Shown: in pieces, positions 18,950 through 41,978 of the stretch | How the letters are laid out: every line of letters starts with the position of its first letter | Position numbering within the stretch: the first letter of the stretch is position 1 | Virus record (IMG/VR): IMGVR_UViG_2778261381_000005 | Reading direction: 5' to 3' (one strand) | Origin: a virus | Lineage: Duplodnaviria > Heunggongvirae > Uroviricota > Caudoviricetes | Length of the DNA: 61,778 nt | Translations under genes and position numbers: made by a program | The notes under the pieces: model-generated | Told to the model about the DNA's origin: nothing | The model's database searches: none | What the model saw: only the letters and a program-made list of their open reading frames with translations

Positions 18950-19363
18950 ATGGCAAGAGGTATGTATGTCTTATGCGAAATTGAAGGTGTGCTGGCAAAT
19001 GCCAGCCATCGTAAATCAGTATCTGACGCGGATGCAGGCCAGCTCATTGCCGGTGATGAACTCATTTTCCCCACCAGCCGTATGTTGCGTGGTTTTGCTC
19101 GCTCAGGGGCTGAAGTGGTGCTTATCAGTAGCCGCTCTGAAACTCTTGAAGCGCCAACTAAACGATGGCTGAAAGATTTTGGCGTTGATTATGACTGGCT
19201 TCATCTCGTACCGAATGGCACCAGTTATGAGAAGCATATTAAGCGCACATTAGCGGAGCATAAAGGCGATCTGCTTATCGCTGCGCTGGTGCACGATCCT
19301 CGACTCCGTGCCGCTTTAGCCGACTCTCACCATCGACCGGTCATCTATGAGGTGAGCAAATGA
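18950..19363 (+). CDS. hypothetical protein
   Basis: ATG 2 nt after thyA stop; overlaps DHFR start. Confidence 0.45.
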   Translation: MARGMYVLCEIEGVLANASHRKSVSDADAGQLIAGDELIFPTSRMLRGFARSGAEVVLISSRSETLEAPTKRWLKDFGVDYDWLHLVPNGTSYEKHIKRTLAEHKGDLLIAALVHDPRLRAALADSHHRPVIYEVSK

Positions 19364-19836
19364 AGATGATCGCTGCTGTTGGCCGTAACTATGAGATCGG
19401 CATAGCGAACGAACTGCCCTGGCGTTGTTCTACCGATCTGAAGCTATTTAAGAGACTCACCAAAAACGCCACTGTCGTTATGGGGCGTAAAACGATGGAA
19501 AGTCTCAAACGCCCTCTTCCAGAGCGTCATAACCTCGTTTTGACGCGCTCTCATGGCTTTGTACCAAATGGATTCTACCCTGCTGGTGTGGATGATGTGT
19601 TGCGATTACCAGAGCCTGTGTGGGTGATTGGCGGGGAACAAATTTACTCGCTATTCATGCCGCATGTTGAAGAGATTTGGCTCTCCCACATCGGCGTTGA
19701 TGTACCAAACGCCGATGCATTCTTCCCGGCAAGCATGATGCGTAACTTAGGCTTTGTGCCTGTTGAAACAGCTTATACCCAACGAGCCAGCGAGGAAGAG
19801 CCTGGCTTTTCGCAGATCGTATACAGAAGGTCGTAA
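19360..19836 (+). CDS. folA: dihydrofolate reductase
   Basis: IAAVGRNYEIG, LPW, VVMGRKT, VIGGEQIY motifs; 158 aa. Confidence 0.85.
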   Translation: MKMIAAVGRNYEIGIANELPWRCSTDLKLFKRLTKNATVVMGRKTMESLKRPLPERHNLVLTRSHGFVPNGFYPAGVDDVLRLPEPVWVIGGEQIYSLFMPHVEEIWLSHIGVDVPNADAFFPASMMRNLGFVPVETAYTQRASEEEPGFSQIVYRRS

Positions 19837-20480
19837 TGGATTACCGGATTGGGATCACTGGTGCTCAGGGCAGTGGGAAAACAACCCTGGCTAAATATAT
19901 CGACAAACATTACGGAATCCCTTACGTGGATGCTGGTGTCGGAAGTTTGATGAGCCGCCTCGGTGTTCGAGTAGGTGAGTCTATGCCTCTATATGAGCGG
20001 CTTCAGATTCAAATGGAAATAGCAAAGCATATAGAGCTACTTACACGTGGTGTTGAAGGCTTTGTTATCGATCGCACACCTGCTGATGTTATGGCCTACA
20101 CGTTGGATTTGGTCGGCCATACAAATGAAGATCGGTGTATTGAGTTAGCCCTCGATATCGAAAAGTTTTGCCACAAAACTGCTATTTCAAACTTTAACGC
20201 CATTGCTGGCCTACGCCCGGGGGTCGCTCTCTCAGAGCGAGATTACTTGCGATCACAACGAGCATCATTAGACCGTCTGTATGTCGCTCGTATTGATGCG
20301 TTGATGTGCGGGGAACTGACAAAAATTCACCTGCATCCGCAAAGGGGAGATCTGCAAACCTTCGTCGTTTCCAACCGATATCGCACGGTTGAAGCAAGAG
20401 CCAGATCAGTGATGAGAATGCTAGATAACGCTGTAGAAAAGATAGAAAACCGGTTCTGTGGCCGAGTAACCGTTCATTAG
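19836..20480 (+). CDS. P-loop nucleotide kinase-like protein
   Basis: Walker A GITGAQGSGKTT near N-terminus; position in nucleotide metabolism cluster. Confidence 0.5.
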   Translation: MDYRIGITGAQGSGKTTLAKYIDKHYGIPYVDAGVGSLMSRLGVRVGESMPLYERLQIQMEIAKHIELLTRGVEGFVIDRTPADVMAYTLDLVGHTNEDRCIELALDIEKFCHKTAISNFNAIAGLRPGVALSERDYLRSQRASLDRLYVARIDALMCGELTKIHLHPQRGDLQTFVVSNRYRTVEARARSVMRMLDNAVEKIENRFCGRVTVH

Positions 20481-20970: not shown

Positions 20971-21528
20971 ATGACAACGATTGTTGCAGGCATCGATATC
21001 GAGTCTACGGGACTGGATTTCCTTGCTGGTCATAAAATTATTGAAATCGCAATTACCCGCTATGAACTGGAGACACAGAGACATATTGATAGTCTGGAGA
21101 TGCGTTTTAACCCTCGCAGAAACATAGATCCGAAAGCTCAAGCCGTTCATGGCATTTCATTGGAACAGCTCGCAGCTGAACCTTTGTTGTCAAATCATGC
21201 CAGCGAAATTGGCGCTTATATGGGGGCATGTAGTGTGTGGGTTGCTCATAACGGCGAAGCATTTGATATACCATTTATTCGACACGAGTTTTCAGGGTAT
21301 GGAGTAAGACTGCCAGAAGTTCCTGTTATAGATACTATGTTATCGGGATTGTGGGCCACAGAAGACGGTAAACGTCCCCGCCTTGAAGAGTTGGCCTTCT
21401 CTCTTGGCTTTATATACGATCATGCCAAAGCACATAGTGCCTTATATGACACAAACTTAATGATGCAATGCTTCTTTAAGGCACGTAATAAGTACGGATT
21501 TTTTAAATTACCCTCTGAAATTGTGTAA
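20971..21528 (+). CDS. DnaQ-like 3'-5' exonuclease (DEDDh)
   Basis: Exo motifs GIDIESTG, HNGEAFDIPF, HSALYDT. Confidence 0.7.
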   Translation: MTTIVAGIDIESTGLDFLAGHKIIEIAITRYELETQRHIDSLEMRFNPRRNIDPKAQAVHGISLEQLAAEPLLSNHASEIGAYMGACSVWVAHNGEAFDIPFIRHEFSGYGVRLPEVPVIDTMLSGLWATEDGKRPRLEELAFSLGFIYDHAKAHSALYDTNLMMQCFFKARNKYGFFKLPSEIV

Positions 21529-28684: not shown

Positions 28685-31600
28685 CTATATCTGCCCACCT
28701 ACTCCTTTGAACTTTTCAATAAACGTGACGATTTTCTGGAAAACGGTCTGTTTTTTCGTTTTATATTGCGGGTTTAACGGACTAAGTTTTGGTAATGTCT
28801 CGTTTAATTCTGTGCCATTTTCGGTGGCGTATTCGCGTTTTAAAGACGTGCGAATATAGCGTTTCGCCGCCTCTTCATTGAGATTTTCTTCTTTTATCAA
28901 TGCTTCTGCTTCACGTTGCTGTTCGCGTTGAGCAAACGTAAAGAATGCCTCAATGATACTGGCTTTGTCTGGTAAATCATCCAGGTTCGTTTGCTGAATA
29001 AAATCGACCACCAGGCCCTCTTTCGCCCGGTTCCCCAGGCTTGAACGAATTAAGCGTTTGACCTCTTCGATCATTTCGCCCTTGCCTTTATTTTGTCTGT
29101 TGTGTTCGAAAATCAGTCCAAGGATATAATCCAGGTTTATTTCCTGAGACTTCAGCAAATCGACCTCAAAAACTACGTCATCCCAGTCAGTGGTTGATTT
29201 CTCTTTTTTCTCAGCTTCTTTCTCACGGCGCTGCCAGTCGCGAATATCGTTATAGGCAGAACGATAATCCTGAATCTTGCGTTCAGCAGGGAGACGAATT
29301 GTTTGCAATTCAGCGAACTTTTCATCATCCACATAATGTTCTGCTTTGAATTTTTCTACCGCAACAGGATCGCTAAGATCGATTTGTTGCAGGGCTTTCA
29401 GCGTGGCAAATTCATCATAGTTTTGCAGGATGTTCTCGGCACGCAGGTATTCACCAAACAGTTTTACGAAGTCTTTCTTCTCTTTTTCACTTTCAATACT
29501 GGCAGGGTCAGGGAACCGTTGTTCCAGTTCTGAAACTACTGCCATAAAGCCGCGTTTAGCTTCACCAGTGGCAGCATCTGTAAAGCCTTCCATATACTCA
29601 GCATAACTCTTTTCTAACACCACATTTTTAGTATTTTTATCACCAAACAGCGTTATGGCATCAATGGTTGAGCGTTCCAGATCCCGAAAAGTGACGATGT
29701 TACCGAAGGTTTTAGTAGCGTCATAAATGCGGTTGGTACGGGAGAATGCCTGCATCAGGCCGTGAAAACGCAAGTTTTTATCGACGAATAGCGTGTTCAA
29801 TGTTGGAGCGTCGAAGCCGGTTAAAAACATCCCAACGACAATTAACAGATCGATATCCTGATTTTTAACCCGTTGGGCTAAATCACGATAGTAGTTCTGA
29901 AAACCGTTACTGTCGGTGCTGAAGTTAGTTTTAAAATAGCTGTTATACTCACGAATTGCAGCGTCAAGAAACTCTTTAGCACTGCTGTCCATTGCGCTGG
30001 TATCAAAAGTTTCATCGGAAATTTCACCAATGGCATTTTGTTCTTCATTGGCGGCAAAGGAGAAGATTGTTGCAACACGCAGCGGTTTATAGGTAGCCGA
30101 TTTATTAGCTGCTTCCTCTTGTAACCGTTTAAACGTCGCGTAATAGGCTTTCGCGGCATCCACGCTACTCACTGCCAGCATGGCATTAAAGCCTTTGGAA
30201 CCTGGGAAAGTACGGTGGGTCTTCTGGCGGAAGTTATTCAGAATATATTGCGTAATTTCCTGTATACGCATGGGATGAAGAAATGCCTGCTGATTTTCAG
30301 CCGCACTCAGTTTTTTCTCGTCGGTTTCTGTCTCTAAAGATTTAAACTGTGGCCGCACATCGTTGTAGTCCACCTTGAATTTGAGCACTTTTTCATCACG
30401 AATCGCATCGGTAATTACATACGAATGCAATTCACGACCAAATACGCTGGCGGTCGTTTCTGAGCCTAAGGCGTTTTCCGGGAAAATAGGTGTGCCGGTA
30501 AAACCAAACTGATAATAGCGTTTGAATTTCTTCTTCAGGTTTTTCTGCGCTTCTCCAAACTGGCTGCGGTGACATTCATCAAATATAAACACCACTTGCT
30601 GATTGTATACAGGCAGGTCGCTTTCTGCTTTCATCAGGTTATTAAGTTTCTGAATAGTGGTGACGATAATTTTGTTATCGTCCTTATCCAGATTGCGTTT
30701 AAGACCTGCGGTATTTTCCGAGCCGTTGACGCTGTCTGGCGAAAAACGCTTATATTCATTCATGGTCTGGTAATCGAGGTCTTTCCTGTCGACCACGAAG
30801 AAGACTTTATCAATAAAGTCCAGCTCTGTTGCCAGACGCGCGGCTTTAAAGCTGGTGAGGGTTTTACCTGAACCGGTAGTGTGCCAGATATACCCACCGC
30901 TTTCCGGTTTTGACCAGTTCTTCGCTGTAAAGGAACTCTTAATTTTCCACAGAATGCGCTCAGTGGCGGCAATCTGGTACGGTCGCATCACCAGTAGCGT
31001 TTGGCTAACATCGAATACGCTGTAGTTCACTAAGACATTAAGCAGGGTATGTTTCTGGAAAAAGGTGGCGGTAAAGTCTTTGAGGTCTTTAATCAGCGTG
31101 TTGTCTGATTTCGCCCAATTCATGGTGAAGTCAAAACTGTTTTTATCGCGCTTTGTCGTGTTGGCAAAGTAACGGGTATCGGTGCCGTTGGAAATGACAA
31201 ACAGTTGCAGATACTTAAACAGAGAATTTTCGCTGTTAAAACTCTCTTTGCTGTAACGATGTATCTGGTTAAAGGCCTCACGAATCGCCACGCCGCGCTT
31301 TTTCAGTTCGATTTGTACCAGCGGTAAGCCATTAACCAGGATCGTGACGTCATAACGGTTAGCATGAGAACCCGTCTGTTCAAACTGCTGGATAATCTGC
31401 ACCTTGTTGCGCATGAGATTCTTTTTATCTATCAAATAGATGTTCTCAAGACGCTCGTCATCAAAAATAAAGTCGCAAATATAGTCGATATGGATTTTAC
31501 GGGTCTTATCCAGGATGCCATCGCTCGGGTTATCCAGATACTGCTCCGTGAAACGCCGCCATTCGCTGTCATTAAACACCACACCATTGAGGTTCTGAAG

Positions 31601-31801
31601 CTGTTCCCGAACGTTGGCCAGCATCGCCGACTGAGATTTTACGGAAATAAATTCATAGCCCTGATTCCGCAGATCCTGAATCAGTTCACGTTCCAGGTCC
31701 GATTCGCTCTGGTAGCTGTCGCCTGTTTGCTCGGCTTTGATGTACTTATCAAGAACGATAAAGTTATTGGATTCAGCAATGGTGTGTGTCTGATGAGTCA
31801 T
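28685..31801 (-). CDS. hsdR: type I restriction enzyme R subunit (EcoR124-like, type IC)
   Basis: 1038 aa; helicase motifs TGSGKT, DECHRS, SRTNR; N-terminus resembles EcoR124I HsdR as I recall it. Confidence 0.9.
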
Positions 31802-31922
31802 AGCGCATCCTTTGTGCCGTCTGGCAAGGGCCGGAAGGGCTTTAAGGGCGACTTCCGGCGTGTAAAAAATAGTCTCTATATAGACCGGATGTTAAGGTGA
31901 TCCGGTCGGTAGCAATGGTCAA

Positions 31923-33178
<1,256 letters not shown>

Positions 33179-33182
<4 letters not shown>

Positions 33183-34741
33183 GCCTGTACCTCGCTACCT
33201 TCAATCTCAGCAACAATCGCATCAATATCTTTACGCAACTGGTCGATTTTGCTGACCGTGGTTTTCAGCTCAGCATTCAGCTCAGCGATATCGATAATTT
33301 CGCGAGTATCTTTCGCTTCCACATAGCTGCTCACCGACAGGTTATAGTCATTCGCGACAACAGTCTCAAACGCAACAGATTTCGCCAGATGAGCAACATC
33401 TTCCTTGCTGGCAAATACCTGCATAATCTGTTCGATATGAGCATCGGTCAGAATGTTGTTGTTAGTCTCTTTTTTGAACAGTTCGCTGGCATCAATAAAC
33501 TGAACTTTGGTATCCGTTTTATGTTTAGACAGCACCAGAATATTGACGGCAATAGTGGTGCCAAAGAACAGATTCGGTGCCAGTGAAATCACGGTTTCGA
33601 CATAGTTATTGTCGACCAGATACTGACGGATTTTCTGCTCCGCGCCGCCACGGTAAAAAATGCCTGGGAAGCAGACAATCGCAGCGCGACCTTTGGCCGA
33701 AAGATAGTTCAGCGCATGTAATACAAACGCAAAGTCAGCTTTGGATTTGGGGGCCAGAACGCCAGCCGGGGCAAAACGTTCATCGTTAATCAGCGTCGGG
33801 TCATCGCTGCCAATCCATTTCACCGAATACGGCGGGTTAGAAACGATGGCATCAAACGGTTTTTCATCTCTGAAGTGCGGCTCAGTCAGTGTATTACCCA
33901 GCTTGATATCAAACTTGTCGTAGTTGATGTTGTGCAAAAACATGTTCATACGCGCCAGGTTATAGGTCGTATGGTTGATTTCCTGACCAAAAAAACCTTC
34001 TTCGATGATATGGTCATCAAACTGTTTTTTCGCCTGCAACAACAGCGAACCGGAGCCTGCTGCCGGGTCGTAGATTTTGTTAACGTGGGTCTGCCCGTGC
34101 ATAGCCAGTTGTGCAATCAGCTTAGAGACGTGCTGCGGTGTAAAGAACTCGCCGCCGGACTTACCGGCATTCGCCGCATAGTTAGAAATCAGGAACTCAT
34201 AGGCGTCACCGAACAGGTCAATCTGATGTTCATGGAAGTCACCAAGTTTTAGCCCTTCAACCCCTTTCAGAACCGCAGCCAAGCGGGCATTTTTATCTTT
34301 AACGGTGTTACCCAGGCGGTTACTGGTGGTATCGAAATCAGCAAACAAACCTTTGATGTCAGCTTCTGAAGGATAACCGTAAGCAGAACTTTCGATAGCA
34401 ACGAAGATGCTGTTTAAATCTGCATTCAGTCTGTCATTAGTATTTGCTTTCGCAGCTACGTTGCAGAAAAGCTGACTGGGGTAGATGAAGTAGCCTTTAG
34501 TTTTGATGGCATCGTCTTTAATGTCATCAGTAATTACGCTGTCATCCAGTTTCGCATAACAGATACTGTCATCACCGGCTTCAATATAACTGGAAAAATT
34601 TTCGCTGATAAAACGGTAAAAAAGCGCGCCCAAAACGTACTGCTTAAAATCCCATCCATCGACTGAACCCCTGACATCGTTAGCAATTTGCCAGATCTGG
34701 CGATGAAGCTCTGCACGTTGTTGAATACTTGTCATTTTCAT
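33179..34741 (-). CDS. hsdM: type I restriction-modification methyltransferase subunit
   Basis: 520 aa; N6-adenine MTase motifs DPAAGSGS and NPPY; operon order hsdM-hsdS-hsdR. Confidence 0.9.
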
Positions 34742-35093: not shown

Positions 35094-35345
35094 ATGAGCA
35101 ACTGGAACATAGCAGCCAAAAGCCAGGAAGAAAGGAATAAAGTTAACGTTGACCTGGCTGCCAGGGGGGTTGCCTACAAAGAGCGATTGAACATACCCGT
35201 CATAGCGGAACAGGTAGCCCGTGAGCAACCTGAGAACCTGCGCACCTATTTCATGGAACGGCTACGGCACTACCGGCAGTTAAGCCTCCTGCTGCCAAAA
35301 GGAAACGATCCGGTATATCAGAAAGAAGATATAGCCAAAAAATAA
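35094..35345 (+). CDS. hypothetical protein
   Basis: ORF only; weak RBS. Confidence 0.3.
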
Positions 35346-35405
35346 CGCGCCACCAGACGAGCGCAAAGCATCGCGCTATTGCACACTTCAAGCATCTTTA
35401 ATGTA

Positions 35406-35425
35406 TACTGTATGGATAAACAGTA
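35406..35425 (+). promoter_or_regulatory. LexA (SOS) box
   Basis: TACTGTATGGATAAACAGTA fits CTGT-N8-ACAG; 18 nt upstream of umuD'-like ATG. Confidence 0.7.
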
Positions 35426-35443
35426 CTCTGAGGTGAAAACGCT

Positions 35444-35833
35444 ATGGGCTTCCCTTCTCCTGCGGCGGATTATGCTGAGAGCCGTATTTCTCTTGATCAG
35501 CAGATAATTAGACATCCTTCAGCGACCTACTTCATGAGGGCAGCTGATAGTCATCATCGTGAGGGAATATTACAGGGTGCATTGCTGGTGGTCGATTCCT
35601 CACTTACCCCGGTTGATGGTTCTCTGCTTGTATGCGCTCTGGATGGGGAATATCGCGTAAAAAGATACCGGAAGTACCCACGTCAGCATCTGGAGGATTT
35701 AAGAACCGGTAAGAAGGAAGCATTGCCAAAGGATGACGATGGATGCACGGGCAGCAATGCCGTGTTTGGTGTGATCACTCACATTATCAACGACGCAAGA
35801 AGTGGCGAGTTTGATGATTGTCCCGTGATGTAG
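35444..35833 (+). CDS. UmuD'-like protein (S24 LexA-family fold lacking the N-terminal arm)
   Basis: Starts M-GFPSPAADY, aligning from Gly25 of E. coli UmuD (recalled); SATYF, VFGVITHII conserved; in-frame stop 13 nt upstream. Confidence 0.6.
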   Translation: MGFPSPAADYAESRISLDQQIIRHPSATYFMRAADSHHREGILQGALLVVDSSLTPVDGSLLVCALDGEYRVKRYRKYPRQHLEDLRTGKKEALPKDDDGCTGSNAVFGVITHIINDARSGEFDDCPVM

Positions 35834-35845
35834 GAGAACTGATTA

Positions 35846-35869
35846 GGCGGTGCAATGCACCGCCTTTTA
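35846..35869 (+). terminator. rho-independent terminator
   Basis: GGCGGTGCA atg CACCGCC followed by TTTT. Confidence 0.6.
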
Positions 35870-36970
35870 TCACACTGCGCGGAATGCGATTTCGCCAGGT
35901 ATTACTTCACCTTGCCAATACATTTGGGCGGCAACGCGATCTGCGAGGTCACGATAAATAGCCGTAAATTCGCTATCTGGACGACTAATAACGGTTGGTG
36001 TTCCGTTATCCAGATCTTCACGAAGAGAGATATGAAGTGGCATTTGGCCTAACAACTGCGTGTTGTATTTCTCGGCCAGTTTCTGTGCGCCACCGGTGCC
36101 AAAAATTGGCTCGTGATGACCGCAGTTACTGCAAATATGCACACTCATGTTTTCGACGATACCCAGTACCGGCACTTCGACTTTTTCGAACATCACAATG
36201 CCTTTCTTCGCATCGATCAGCGCGATGTCTTGCGGCGTAGTTACCACAACCGCACCAGTTACAGGAATGTTCTGCGCCAGCGTCAACTGAATATCACCAG
36301 TGCCCGGCGGCATATCGAGAACGAGATAGTCCAGATCAGGCCATAGAGTTTCCTGCAACATCTGCATCAGCGCCTTGCTGGCCATCGGTCCACGCCACAC
36401 CATTGCATTGTCGTCGGTGACCAGATAACCAATAGAGTTGGTTGCCAGGCCATGAGACATGATAGGTGCCATGTGAGTACCGTCAGGTGAGGTTGGACGT
36501 TGGTTTTCCGCGCCCAGCATGGTTGGAATTGATGGACCATAGATATCGGCATCCAAAATACCAACTTTCGCACCTTCAGCAGCCAACGCCAGTGCCAGGT
36601 TTACCGCCGTGGAGGATTTACCCACGCCGCCCTTGCCTGAGCTGACGGCGATAATGTTCTTAACGCCATTAATGCCTGGTTGGTTTTTGACGCGCTTAAG
36701 CGTGGCAATGTTGTACGACAGCTTCCAGTCAATAGCCTTTGCGCCAGTGATACGGAGCAGATCACCACTACATTGCTCTTTCAGGTCTTCAAAAGGCTTA
36801 TTCCACACGAAAGGCATGATTAGTTCGACATGCAGTGTGTCATCCATCAACGCAACATGGTGTAACGCTTTAAGCGTAGTCAGGTTGTGTTTCAGGGTTG
36901 GGTGCTGAAAATTAGCCAGCGTACCGGCTACCATTGCTCTCAGGGCATCCGGCGATTTGGACTCGCTCAT
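35870..36970 (-). CDS. mrp: Mrp/ApbC Fe-S cluster carrier ATPase
   Basis: P-loop SGKGGVGKS, C-terminal CSNCGH; divergent from metG as in E. coli. Confidence 0.9.
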   Translation of the reverse strand: MSESKSPDALRAMVAGTLANFQHPTLKHNLTTLKALHHVALMDDTLHVELIMPFVWNKPFEDLKEQCSGDLLRITGAKAIDWKLSYNIATLKRVKNQPGINGVKNIIAVSSGKGGVGKSSTAVNLALALAAEGAKVGILDADIYGPSIPTMLGAENQRPTSPDGTHMAPIMSHGLATNSIGYLVTDDNAMVWRGPMASKALMQMLQETLWPDLDYLVLDMPPGTGDIQLTLAQNIPVTGAVVVTTPQDIALIDAKKGIVMFEKVEVPVLGIVENMSVHICSNCGHHEPIFGTGGAQKLAEKYNTQLLGQMPLHISLREDLDNGTPTVISRPDSEFTAIYRDLADRVAAQMYWQGEVIPGEIAFRAV

Positions 36971-37127: not shown

Positions 37128-39161
37128 ATGACCCAAGTCGCGAAGAAAATTCTGGTGACGTGCGCGCTGCCGTACGCTAACGGCTCAATCCACCTCGGCC
37201 ATATGCTGGAGCACATCCAGGCTGATGTCTGGGTTCGTTACCAGCGAATGCGCGGCCACGAGGTTAATTTCATCTGTGCCGACGATGCCCACGGTACGCC
37301 GATCATGCTGAAAGCACAGCAGCTTGGTATCACACCGGAGCAGATGATTGGCGAAATGAGTCAGGAACACCAGACTGATTTCGCAGGCTTTAACATCAGC
37401 TATGACAACTATCACTCGACGCACAGCGAAGAGAACCGCCAGCTGTCTGAGCTTATCTATACTCGCCTGAAAGAGAACGGTTTTATTAAAAACCGCACTA
37501 TCTCTCAGTTGTACGACCCGGAAAAAGGCATGTTCCTGCCGGATCGTTTTGTGAAAGGCACCTGCCCGAAATGTAAAGCGCCAGATCAATACGGCGATAA
37601 CTGTGAAGTATGCGGTGCGACTTACAGCCCGACTGAACTGATTGAACCGAAATCGGTGGTTTCTGGCGCTACCCCGGTAATGCGTGATTCCGAACACTTC
37701 TTCTTTGATCTGCCTTCTTTCAGCGAAATGTTGCAGGCATGGACCCGCAGCGGCGCGTTGCAGGAGCAGGTGGCGAACAAAATGCAGGAATGGTTTGAAT
37801 CCGGCCTGCAACAGTGGGATATCTCCCGAGATGCGCCTTACTTCGGTTTTGAAATTCCGAACGCGCCGGGCAAATATTTCTACGTCTGGCTGGACGCGCC
37901 GATTGGCTACATGGGTTCCTTCAAGAATCTGTGCGACAAGCGCGGCGATACCACCAGCTTCGATGAATACTGGAAGAAAGACTCCACCGCCGAGCTGTAC
38001 CACTTCATCGGTAAAGATATTGTTTACTTCCACAGCCTGTTCTGGCCTGCCATGCTGGAAGGCAGCAACTTCCGCAAGCCGACCAACCTGTTTGTTCACG
38101 GCTATGTGACGGTGAACGGCGCGAAGATGTCCAAGTCTCGCGGCACCTTTATTAAAGCCAGCACCTGGCTGAATCATTTTGACGCCGACAGCCTGCGTTA
38201 CTACTACACTGCGAAACTCTCTTCGCGCATTGATGATATCGATCTCAACCTGGAGGATTTCGTTCAGCGCGTGAATGCCGATATCGTGAACAAAGTGGTT
38301 AACCTGGCCTCCCGTAATGCAGGCTTTATCAACAAGCGTTTTGACGGCGTGCTGGCAAGCGAACTGGCTGACCCGCAACTGTACAAAACCTTTACTGATG
38401 CCGCTGAAGTGATTGGCGAAGCATGGGAAAGCCGCGAATTTGGTAAAGCTATCCGTGAAATCATGGCATTGGCTGACCTGGCTAACCGCTATGTCGATGA
38501 ACAGGCTCCGTGGGTGGTGGCGAAGCAGGAAGGACGCGATGCCGATCTGCAGGCGATTTGCTCTATGGGCATTAACCTGTTCCGCGTGCTGATGACGTAC
38601 CTGAAGCCGGTACTGCCGAAACTGACTGAACGTGCAGAAGCATTCCTGAATACAGAACTGACCTGGGATGGTATCCAGCAACCGCTGCTGGCGCACAAAG
38701 TTAATCCGTTCAAAGCACTGTATAACCGCATCGACATGAAGCAGGTTGAAGCACTGGTGGAAGCCTCTAAAGAAGAAGTGAAAGCCACTGCCGCGCCAGT
38801 TACTGGCCCGCTGGCAGACGATCCGATTCAGGAAACCATCACCTTTGATGACTTCGCCAAAGTTGACCTGCGCGTGGCGCTGATTGAAAACGCGGAGTTT
38901 GTTGAAGGCTCTGACAAACTGCTGCGTCTGACGCTGGATCTAGGTGGTGAAAAACGCAATGTCTTCTCAGGCATCCGTTCTGCTTATCCAGACCCACAGG
39001 CACTGATTGGTCGTCACACCATTATGGTGGCTAACCTGGCTCCGCGTAAAATGCGCTTCGGTATCTCCGAAGGTATGGTGATGGCTGCTGGCCCCGGTGG
39101 GAAAGATATCTTCCTGTTAAGCCCGGATGCTGGTGCTAAACCTGGCCACCAGGTTAAGTAA
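37128..39161 (+). CDS. metG: methionyl-tRNA synthetase
   Basis: HLGHMLEH (HIGH), KMSKS, zinc knuckle CPKC...CEVCG; ORF-track start at 36999 rejected in favour of ATG 37128 (MTQVAKKIL). Confidence 0.95.
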
Positions 39162-41582: not shown

Positions 41583-41978
41583 ATGCACCTGATCATTATG
41601 CTTTGTAGCCGTTTTCTTACTGGTATTATTTACGCCATTGAGAAAACAAGTTGTTTACGGAGTTGTGATGAAAAAATCATTGGTTCTTGGTCTGGACAAA
41701 GACCAGAAGAGAAAGAGAAGCCTGCGCTGGTTGCTCAATTAACTTTGCTGGACATCGTTGCCAATGGAACCTCTATTCGTCTGTTCCGTGAAACAGCGGT
41801 GTCTTTCGATAAAAACACCTTTACTCGTTATGTAATGAATGTTCGTCGCCAGCGTGGAAAAGGCTGGGTGGCATTTCAAAGAATGTGGCCGGAACATCAG
41901 CTCGAACTGGCCTTGATGGAAGTTAACCGCGTGGCCCAGCAAGAGATTCAGAGAGCATCAGTGATGGCAATAGCCTGA
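41583..41978 (+). CDS. hypothetical protein; start uncertain, possible frameshifted gene
   Basis: Motif 1 and RBS point to ATG 41668 in +1 frame, which stops after 24 codons; see findings. Confidence 0.3.
   Translation: MHLIIMLCSRFLTGIIYAIEKTSCLRSCDEKIIGSWSGQRPEEKEKPALVAQLTLLDIVANGTSIRLFRETAVSFDKNTFTRYVMNVRRQRGKGWVAFQRMWPEHQLELALMEVNRVAQQEIQRASVMAIA

What the first reader, a model, noticed from the sequence alone, without database searches (positions are those of the whole stretch)
35406..35833. SOS-box-driven UmuD'-like gene encoded already processed, with no umuC
The ORF begins Met-Gly-Phe-Pro-Ser-Pro-Ala-Ala-Asp-Tyr, which aligns to E. coli UmuD starting at Gly25, the residue after the RecA-stimulated Cys24-Gly25 self-cleavage site. 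The whole N-terminal arm is therefore absent at the gene level: an in-frame stop lies 13 nt upstream of the ATG, so it cannot extend. A canonical LexA box (TACTGTATGGATAAACAGTA) and RBS sit directly upstream. No umuC/polV partner follows, only a terminator. A constitutively active UmuD' under SOS control could hijack host UmuC or modulate the damage checkpoint.
Basis: partly seen in the sequence, partly recalled or inferred. Interest (0 to 1): 0.7.

Follow-up and report, generated by a model that had tools for sequence, protein, structure and literature searches.

The report
HumD: phage-borne pre-cleaved UmuD' gene

Summary
A LexA box lies at 35406-35425, followed by an RBS and a 129-codon ORF (35444-35833). 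Gly2 of the ORF aligns with Gly25 of E. coli UmuD. An in-frame TGA lies just upstream, a strong hairpin lies downstream, and there is no umuC.

It scores 219.8 bits, end to end, against NCBI's curated "HumD family translesion DNA polymerase" model (cut-off 120). It is 91.5% identical to phage P1 HumD, and RefSeq annotates it as HumD on identical ~110-kb E. coli plasmids. The P1 record describes humD as LexA-regulated and as complementing UmuD'. [quoted passage not shown]

The shortened N-terminus, the upstream LexA box and the missing umuC are family-wide features, seen in P1, N15, phiKO2, HK639, HK140 and Citrobacter prophages. dN/dS against P1 is 0.05, so the gene is under purifying selection and is not a remnant. 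The host partner umuC is present in 5423 of 5426 complete E. coli genomes.

The only local twist is the setting: an SSU5-like phage-plasmid, with hot immediately upstream, P1's lxr absent, a type I R-M operon on one side and apbC/metG on the other.

Interest is low. Novelty: already known.

The parts
35380..35409 (+). Predicted sigma-70 promoter (TGCACA, 18-nt spacer, TATACT) whose -10 hexamer overlaps the left arm of the LexA box
   Evidence: 9 of 12 matches; only a consensus match, and the shuffles gave a mean of 1.4 such sites. The stretch from TTGCAC through the ATG is conserved with P1 while the sequence further upstream is not.
35406..35425 (+). LexA (SOS) box TACTGTATGGATAAACAGTA
   Evidence: Only match in the window, none in 100 shuffles. 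It is 17/20 identical to the E. coli umuDC operator. The homologous site in P1 is annotated as a LexA binding site. LexA-type boxes also precede humD in N15, phiKO2, HK639 and HK140.
35429..35431 (+). In-frame TGA that closes the reading frame 12 nt before the start codon
   Evidence: P1 has the same TGA at the same distance.
35430..35435 (+). Ribosome-binding site GAGGTG, 8 nt before the ATG
   Evidence: Read directly from the sequence. Identical in P1.
35444..35833 (+). humD coding sequence (129 aa plus TAG): a UmuD'-like protein encoded without the N-terminal arm or cleavage site
   Evidence: NCBIfam NF051876 HumD, 219.8 bits. Pfam Peptidase_S24. PHROG 811 UmuD-like. 91.5% identical to P1 HumD. 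Gly2 aligns with UmuD Gly25. dN/dS 0.05 against P1. Annotated as HumD in RefSeq, WP_000506720.1.
35845..35870 (.). G+C-rich hairpin (35845-35865) plus T-run. Probable intrinsic terminator of humD. It lies in the 36-nt gap before the convergent apbC stop, so it may serve both genes.
   Evidence: the 50-nt stretch 35831-35880 folds at -20.3 kcal/mol, z -4.48. N15 and phiKO2 humD are also followed by annotated terminators.
35094..35345 (+). hot, a homologue of the DNA polymerase III theta subunit. It is the upstream neighbour and forms part of the same hot-humD module as in P1-like phages.
   Evidence: Pfam DNA_pol3_theta, 107.9 bits. 85% identical to P1 Hot. hot and humD are adjacent without lxr also in RCS47, 813R1 and D6.

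Best explanation
The locus is an intact, LexA-repressed humD gene carried by an SSU5-like phage-plasmid of E. coli.

Proposed mechanism:
1. In undamaged cells, host LexA sits on the box that overlaps the -10 region and keeps humD off.
2. After DNA damage, RecA-stimulated LexA cleavage derepresses it.
3. The product is a UmuD'-type protein that never had the 24-residue N-terminal arm. It therefore skips the slow RecA-dependent self-cleavage that normally delays UmuD activation.
4. It dimerises, binds the host's chromosomal UmuC and, with RecA, supplies the accessory subunit of a Pol V-type translesion polymerase. This allows error-prone bypass of lesions in host and element DNA.

Shown here: the identity of the gene, its truncated architecture, the operator sequence, purifying selection, the absence of umuC on the element and the presence of umuC in hosts. 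Taken from work on the P1 orthologue: complementation of UmuD' and binding of UmuC and RecA filaments. Inferred: LexA binding at this particular operator, and the benefit to the element.
For: - HumD equivalog model met end to end.
- 91.5% amino-acid identity to P1 HumD and 100% to phage Cyrano.
- RefSeq names the identical protein HumD on ~110-kb E. coli plasmids.
- Gly2 aligns with Gly25 of UmuD and residue 1 of crystallised UmuD'.
- The operator is unique in the window and close to the umuDC operator.
- The promoter-operator-RBS block is conserved with P1.
- LexA box, (M/V)GFPSP start and an in-frame upstream stop are shared by P1, N15, phiKO2, HK639 and HK140.
- 106 of the 120 best homologues start at Met-Gly.
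- dN/dS is 0.05.
- No umuC in the window or the whole plasmid, whereas umuC is present in 5423 of 5426 complete E. coli genomes.
- P1 annotation: 'functionally complements E. coli UmuD'' and 'LexA binding site in the regulatory region of lxr and humD'.
- PMC7092418 states that HumD is the already-activated form.
Against: - No experiment exists for this allele. It differs from P1 HumD at 11 of 129 residues.
- The operator differs from P1's at 3 spacer positions, and LexA binding was not tested.
- The primary paper (McLenigan et al. 1999) is not held in the library. Its experimental content is therefore cited second-hand and from memory.
- From my recollection of that paper, HumD is poorly expressed and complements well only from a high-copy plasmid. 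The physiological role in a lysogen thus remains uncertain.
- The structure model was too poor to add anything.
Confidence: 0.92

Rival explanations
1. HumD acts mainly on the replicative polymerase rather than through UmuC. Like UmuD/UmuD', it would bind Pol III subunits (alpha, beta, epsilon). Together with the adjacent theta homologue Hot, it would tune the host replisome, or the element's own DnaE-based replisome, during the SOS response.
For: hot lies immediately upstream of humD here and in P1-like phages. The element also encodes a DnaQ/RNase_T-type exonuclease and, outside the window, its own dnaE. The reference list of PMC4713147 cites work showing that umuD gene products disrupt the Pol III alpha-beta complex.
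Against: humD in N15, phiKO2, HK140 and Citrobacter prophages has no hot next to it. In HK639, hot is about 16 kb away. The hot linkage is therefore not a family trait. The tested activity of the P1 orthologue is complementation of UmuD'. This rival does not exclude the main explanation.
Confidence: 0.1
2. The ORF is a decaying 5'-truncated remnant of a umuDC operon that lost its start and its umuC by deletion, and it has no function of its own.
For: It is shorter than UmuD and lacks umuC. Against NCBI's model for the autoproteolytic subunit it scores 87 bits, below the cut-off of 110.
Against: It has its own RBS, its own ATG placed exactly at the cleavage-site Gly, and its own LexA box and terminator. 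The same architecture is conserved in phages only 64-71% identical. dN/dS against P1 is 0.05, with about 44 synonymous and 12 non-synonymous differences. At least 646 PLSDB plasmid records carry copies at 80% identity or more.
Confidence: 0.01
3. It is an active S24 serine peptidase working in trans. With no cleavage site of its own, it would use its Ser36/Lys73 dyad to cleave host UmuD, LexA or a phage repressor within mixed dimers.
For: Ser36 and Lys73 align with the UmuD catalytic residues Ser60 and Lys97. The Lys is kept in 100 of 102 family members.
Against: The nucleophile position is Ser in only 58 of 102 family members, Thr in 42 and Ala in 2. Catalysis is therefore not under strict selection. 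No trans-cleavage activity is mentioned in the HumD material I could access.
Confidence: 0.04
4. The start codon is mis-assigned, and a longer UmuD-like protein with an N-terminal arm is made from an upstream start.
For: Some database entries for homologues are longer, 135-223 aa.
Against: An in-frame TGA lies 12 nt before the ATG. The homologues listed as longer still contain Met directly before GFPSP, with one Thr exception, so they look like over-extended start calls. None of their N-terminal extensions resembles the UmuD arm.
Confidence: 0.005

Closest known systems
Bacteriophage P1 HumD (P1_gp103, YP_006569.1; McLenigan et al. 1999, J Bacteriol 181:7005)
   Same: Both are 129 aa and 91.5% identical, with the same MGFPSPAADY start. 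They share the RBS, the in-frame TGA 12 nt upstream and a LexA box at the same distance. Neither has a umuC, and hot lies nearby in both.
   Different: The host element is an SSU5-like phage-plasmid, not a P1-like one. P1's divergent lxr gene between hot and humD is absent. The downstream neighbours are a terminator and convergent apbC/metG instead of phd-doc. There are three differences in the operator spacer and 11 amino-acid differences.
E. coli UmuD / UmuD' (Pol V accessory subunit; PDB 1UMU, 1I4V, 8GMT)
   Same: Same S24 fold family, 42% identical over residues 25-139. The Ser/Lys dyad positions are retained. The LexA operator is 17/20 identical and equally placed. The mature form corresponds to UmuD'.
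   Different: HumD has no residues 1-24 and no Cys24-Gly25 cleavage site, so no RecA-dependent activation step is needed. It is not in an operon with umuC. It has a conserved extra C-terminal tail of about 11 residues. Against NCBI's model for the autoproteolytic subunit it scores 87 bits, below the cut-off of 110.
UmuD-like proteins of linear-plasmid and lambdoid prophages (N15 gp26, phiKO2 gp23, HK639, HK140)
   Same: All are 127-129 aa, 64-71% identical, with an (M/V)GFPSP start and an upstream LexA box. None has umuC, and each is a single-gene insert near the tail-fibre end.
   Different: Several pair humD with a divergent dinI (phiKO2, HK140, Citrobacter prophages). This element has hot upstream and no dinI.
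Plasmid-borne mucAB / impCAB / rumAB / samAB operons
   Same: They are SOS-regulated UmuD homologues carried on mobile elements.
   Different: They encode full-length, cleavable UmuD-type proteins together with their own UmuC-type polymerase. They are only about 38-42% identical, and the alignments begin at query Gly2.

Membership tests
HumD family (NCBIfam NF051876, equivalog) | Full-length match above the curated cut-off | tested here: met
   219.8 bits against a cut-off of 120; protein 1-129 matches profile positions 1-129 of 129.
HumD family | Encoded at the size of UmuD': begins at the Gly equivalent to UmuD Gly25, with no N-terminal arm and no cleavage site | tested here: met
   Gly2 aligns with residue 25 of 8gmt_B and residue 1 of 1umu_A. 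In-frame TGA 12 nt upstream. 106 of 120 homologues share the start.
HumD family | No cognate umuC in the operon or on the element | tested here: met
   tblastn with UmuC gives best E 3.4 in the window and 0.46 in the whole plasmid. A terminator follows the gene.
HumD family | LexA operator in the regulatory region | tested here: met
   The sequence is present, unique in the window and homologous to the annotated P1 site. Actual LexA binding cannot be tested with these tools.
HumD family | Functionally replaces UmuD': restores mutagenesis, dimerises, binds UmuC and RecA filaments | not testable with these tools
   Reported for the P1 orthologue (P1 annotation; title of McLenigan 1999 as cited). 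Not tested for this allele.
UmuD, autoproteolytic Pol V subunit (NCBIfam NF007621 / PRK10276) | Match above the curated cut-off | tested here: not met
   87 bits against a cut-off of 110.
UmuD, autoproteolytic Pol V subunit | N-terminal arm with a Cys/Ala-Gly self-cleavage site | tested here: not met
   UmuD residues 1-24 have no counterpart, and Met replaces Cys24.
UmuD, autoproteolytic Pol V subunit | Ser-Lys catalytic dyad | tested here: inconclusive
   Ser36 and Lys73 are present in this protein. Across the family, however, the Ser position is S 58 / T 42 / A 2 of 102. The dyad is therefore present but probably not required.
UmuD, autoproteolytic Pol V subunit | Operon with umuC | tested here: not met
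Peptidase S24 domain (Pfam PF00717) | Domain match above the gathering score | tested here: met
   37.9 bits against 23.3.
LexA repressor (TIGR00498) | Full-length match including the N-terminal DNA-binding domain | tested here: not met
   27.2 bits against a cut-off of 110.95. Only the C-terminal domain matches (profile positions 91-166).

The most novel reading that the evidence does not exclude
On this SSU5-like phage-plasmid, HumD may not be only a borrower of host UmuC. The element encodes its own DnaE, a DnaQ-type exonuclease and the theta homologue Hot, which is adjacent to humD. HumD could be the SOS-inducible regulator of an element-encoded Pol III-like core, possibly through the HumD-specific conserved C-terminal tail (INDxRxGEFDDCPV), which UmuD lacks.
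Probability: 0.07. Interest if true: 0.5.

Novelty: already known. Interest (0 to 1): 0.1.

Why it matters
It matters little as a discovery. HumD has been known since the 1990s, has a curated NCBI family model, and this exact protein is already annotated as HumD in RefSeq.

It is a useful check on the scan: a reader with no tools correctly inferred, from sequence alone, the biology that was established experimentally for P1.

Biologically, SOS-inducible, pre-activated UmuD' genes on widespread phage-plasmids could raise mutation rates under antibiotic-induced DNA damage. At least 646 PLSDB plasmids carry copies at 80% identity or more, and this element also carries dfrA51. That is a general point about HumD, not a new finding at this locus.

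Tried and rejected
1. Structure prediction from an alignment of 50 close homologues gave an unusable model (mean pLDDT 45.6, pTM 0.35). I ran no fold search and relied instead on the direct sequence match to solved UmuD' structures.
2. I tried to read the primary HumD paper (PMC94175), the P1 genome paper (PMC523184) and the P1 hot paper (PMC2072811). None is held.
3. PMC4713147 lists humD and hot qPCR primers, but the passages I retrieved gave no humD induction data.
4. I looked for umuC, lxr and dinI in the window and the whole plasmid. None was found.
5. I considered a pseudogene remnant. It is rejected by dN/dS of 0.05 and the conserved start.
6. I considered an upstream alternative start. 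It is rejected by the in-frame TGA.
7. I did not compute a LexA heterology index, because I do not have the reference matrix and would not reconstruct it from memory.
8. A second CTGT-N8-ACAG at 41781-41796 has a G+C-rich spacer and is at chance level (0.89 expected). I did not pursue it.

Full report
**The observation**

- TACTGTATGGATAAACAGTA occupies 35406-35425, GAGGTG occupies 35430-35435, and an ATG at 35444 opens a 129-codon frame that ends with TAG at 35831-35833.
- The frame is closed by a TGA at 35429-35431, 12 nt before the ATG, so it cannot be extended.
- The box is the only site in the 61.8-kb window within three mismatches of the SOS-box consensus, and no shuffle produced one.
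- The box is 17/20 identical to the E. coli umuDC operator. That operator sits at almost the same distance from umuD: it ends 19 nt before the ATG, against 18 nt here.
- A promoter-like TGCACA-18-TATACT places its -10 hexamer over the left arm of the box. This is only a consensus match.
- Downstream, a 9-bp G+C-rich hairpin at 35845-35865 is followed by TTTAT. The 50-nt stretch around it folds at -20.3 kcal/mol, z = -4.5. It lies in the short gap before the convergent apbC gene.

**What the protein is**

- Pfam finds a Peptidase_S24 domain, and PHROGs places the protein in a UmuD-like family.
- NCBI's curated equivalog model "HumD family translesion DNA polymerase" is met end to end: 219.8 bits against a cut-off of 120, positions 1-129 of 129. 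The model for the autoproteolytic UmuD subunit is not met (87 against 110), and LexA is far below threshold.
- Against solved structures, Gly2 aligns with residue 1 of crystallised UmuD' (1UMU) and with residue 25 of full-length UmuD (8GMT chain B), E about 1e-22.
- Ser36 and Lys73 align with the UmuD catalytic residues Ser60 and Lys97.

**It is HumD, and it is already annotated as such**

- tblastn against phage records gives 100% identity to Escherichia phage Cyrano. It gives 91.5-93% identity to HumD of P1, P7, RCS47, SJ46 and D6, and 64-71% identity to the UmuD-like proteins of phiKO2, N15, HK140 and HK639.
- The 1.4-kb surrounding stretch is 100% identical to many ~110-kb E. coli plasmids. 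RefSeq now names the product there "HumD family translesion DNA polymerase", WP_000506720.1.
- The P1 reference record annotates humD as "DNA repair; functionally complements E. coli UmuD'". It also marks a LexA binding site "in the regulatory region of lxr and humD".
[quoted passage not shown] 1999. [quoted passage not shown]
- I could not read that paper, because it is not held. From memory, it reports that HumD restores mutagenesis in recA430 lexA(Def) cells, forms a dimer, and binds UmuC and RecA filaments. It also notes explicitly that humD is UmuD'-sized and lacks a umuC partner.

**The short form is a family trait**

- Of the 120 best database homologues (67-99% identical), 106 begin M-G-F/Y-P-S-P at residue 1.
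- The longer entries listed still carry Met directly before GFPSP, with one Thr exception. They look like over-extended gene calls.
- In P1, N15, phiKO2, HK639 and HK140 the gene starts (M/V)GFPSP, has an in-frame stop upstream, and is preceded by a LexA-type box. None has an adjacent umuC.
- The same holds for chromosomal copies at the end of P2-like prophages in Citrobacter.
- Between this allele and P1's there are about 44 synonymous and 12 non-synonymous differences, giving dN/dS of 0.05. The gene is under strong purifying selection and is not a remnant.
- Within the family, the position equivalent to the UmuD nucleophile Ser60 is Ser in 58 sequences, Thr in 42 and Ala in 2 of 102. The Lys is kept in 100 of 102. 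This fits a protein that no longer needs to cut itself.

**Context**

- The window is an SSU5-like phage-plasmid. It matches plasmid pMB5646_2 (NZ_CP103659.1, 109.6 kb) at 96.7-100% identity, and at 99.6% across the humD region.
- That plasmid carries phage head, tail and terminase genes, RepB and ParB, dnaE, nrdAB, thymidylate synthase and dfrA51. dfrA51 is the DHFR gene characterised from phage-plasmid SSU5.
- Neither the window nor the whole plasmid has a UmuC homologue. By contrast, umuC is present in 5423 of 5426 complete E. coli genomes, so the partner is essentially always available in the host.
- Immediately upstream is hot, the theta-subunit homologue (35094-35345), 85% identical to P1 Hot. 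In P1 the order is hot, lxr (opposite strand), LexA box, humD, phd-doc. Here lxr is absent, as it is in the P1-like phages RCS47, 813R1 and D6.
- Homology with P1 upstream of humD starts only at the -35 region.
- Further upstream is a type I restriction-modification operon: hsdM 33179-34741, hsdS 31923-33182 and hsdR 28685-31801, all on the minus strand. Downstream are apbC and metG.

**Mechanism**

The best-supported account is the published one:
1. LexA represses humD.
2. DNA damage derepresses it.
3. The product is a ready-made UmuD'-type dimer. It bypasses the RecA-dependent cleavage delay and supplies host UmuC with its accessory subunit for translesion synthesis.

Shown here are the gene's identity, its architecture, the operator, purifying selection, and the absence of umuC on the element alongside its presence in hosts. 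The biochemical steps are taken from the P1 orthologue. LexA binding at this operator, and the benefit to the element, are inferred.

Four rivals were considered:
- **Replisome-directed role linked to Hot and the element's own DnaE.** Possible, but not supported across the family, because most humD genes are not next to hot.
- **Trans-acting peptidase.** Weakened by the variable nucleophile position.
- **Pseudogene remnant.** Refuted.
- **Mis-assigned start.** Refuted.

**Verdict**

Novelty: already known. Interest is low. The only new element is that this humD copy sits in a hot-humD module on an SSU5-like phage-plasmid, flanked by a type I R-M system and host-like apbC/metG.

Noticed in passing
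window 35789-35830 (HumD residues ~116-129): HumD proteins carry a conserved C-terminal tail (INDARSGEFDDCPVM; E122, D124 and P127 are invariant in 50 sequences) that has no counterpart in E. coli UmuD or in plasmid ImpA/UmuD homologues, whose alignments stop at about residue 116-120. Its function is unknown.
   Followed up: partly
window 35549-35551 (Ser36 codon) and 35660-35662 (Lys73 codon): The residue equivalent to the UmuD nucleophile Ser60 is Ser in 58, Thr in 42 and Ala in 2 of 102 HumD-family proteins, while the Lys97 equivalent is kept in 100 of 102. Selection on catalysis seems relaxed, but the Lys is retained for some other reason.
   Followed up: partly
window 35094-35345 (+), window 20971-21528 (+), and plasmid NZ_CP103659.1 11555-15073 (outside the window): The element encodes a theta homologue (Hot), a DnaQ/RNase_T-type 3'-5' exonuclease (Pfam PF00929, 79 bits) and its own dnaE. 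Together these are the three components of a Pol III core. Whether they assemble is unknown.
   Followed up: partly
window 28685-34741 (-): A complete type I restriction-modification operon (hsdR 28685-31801, hsdS 31923-33182, hsdM 33179-34741) abuts hot-humD. The P1 record notes that sequences flanking its humD region are 96-98% identical to the flanks of the plasmid-borne hsd loci EcoDXXI and R124/3. That suggests a recurrent hsd/hot-humD recombination junction.
   Followed up: no
window 35870-36970 (-) and about 37128-39161 (+): The phage-plasmid carries host-like housekeeping genes: apbC/mrp (iron-sulfur cluster carrier) and a full-length metG (methionyl-tRNA synthetase). They are also present in phage Cyrano.
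   Followed up: no
L009 2181-2884 (phiKO2), L011 1910-2890 (HK140), L012 5439-6390 (Citrobacter prophage): In several other phages humD is paired with a divergently transcribed dinI behind a shared LexA box. From general knowledge, DinI inhibits RecA-mediated UmuD cleavage, so the pair could block host UmuD activation while supplying a pre-activated substitute. There is no dinI on this element.
   Followed up: partly
window 19361-19837 (+), approximate, mapped from L003 4673-5149: dfrA51, a trimethoprim-resistant dihydrofolate reductase characterised from SSU5-type phage-plasmids (PMC12217456), lies in a nucleotide-metabolism cluster with nrdAB and thymidylate synthase.
   Followed up: no
window 41781-41796 (+): A second CTGT-N8-ACAG motif (CTGTTCCGTGAAACAG) with a G+C-rich spacer. 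It is at chance level (0.89 expected) and is probably not a LexA site.
   Followed up: no
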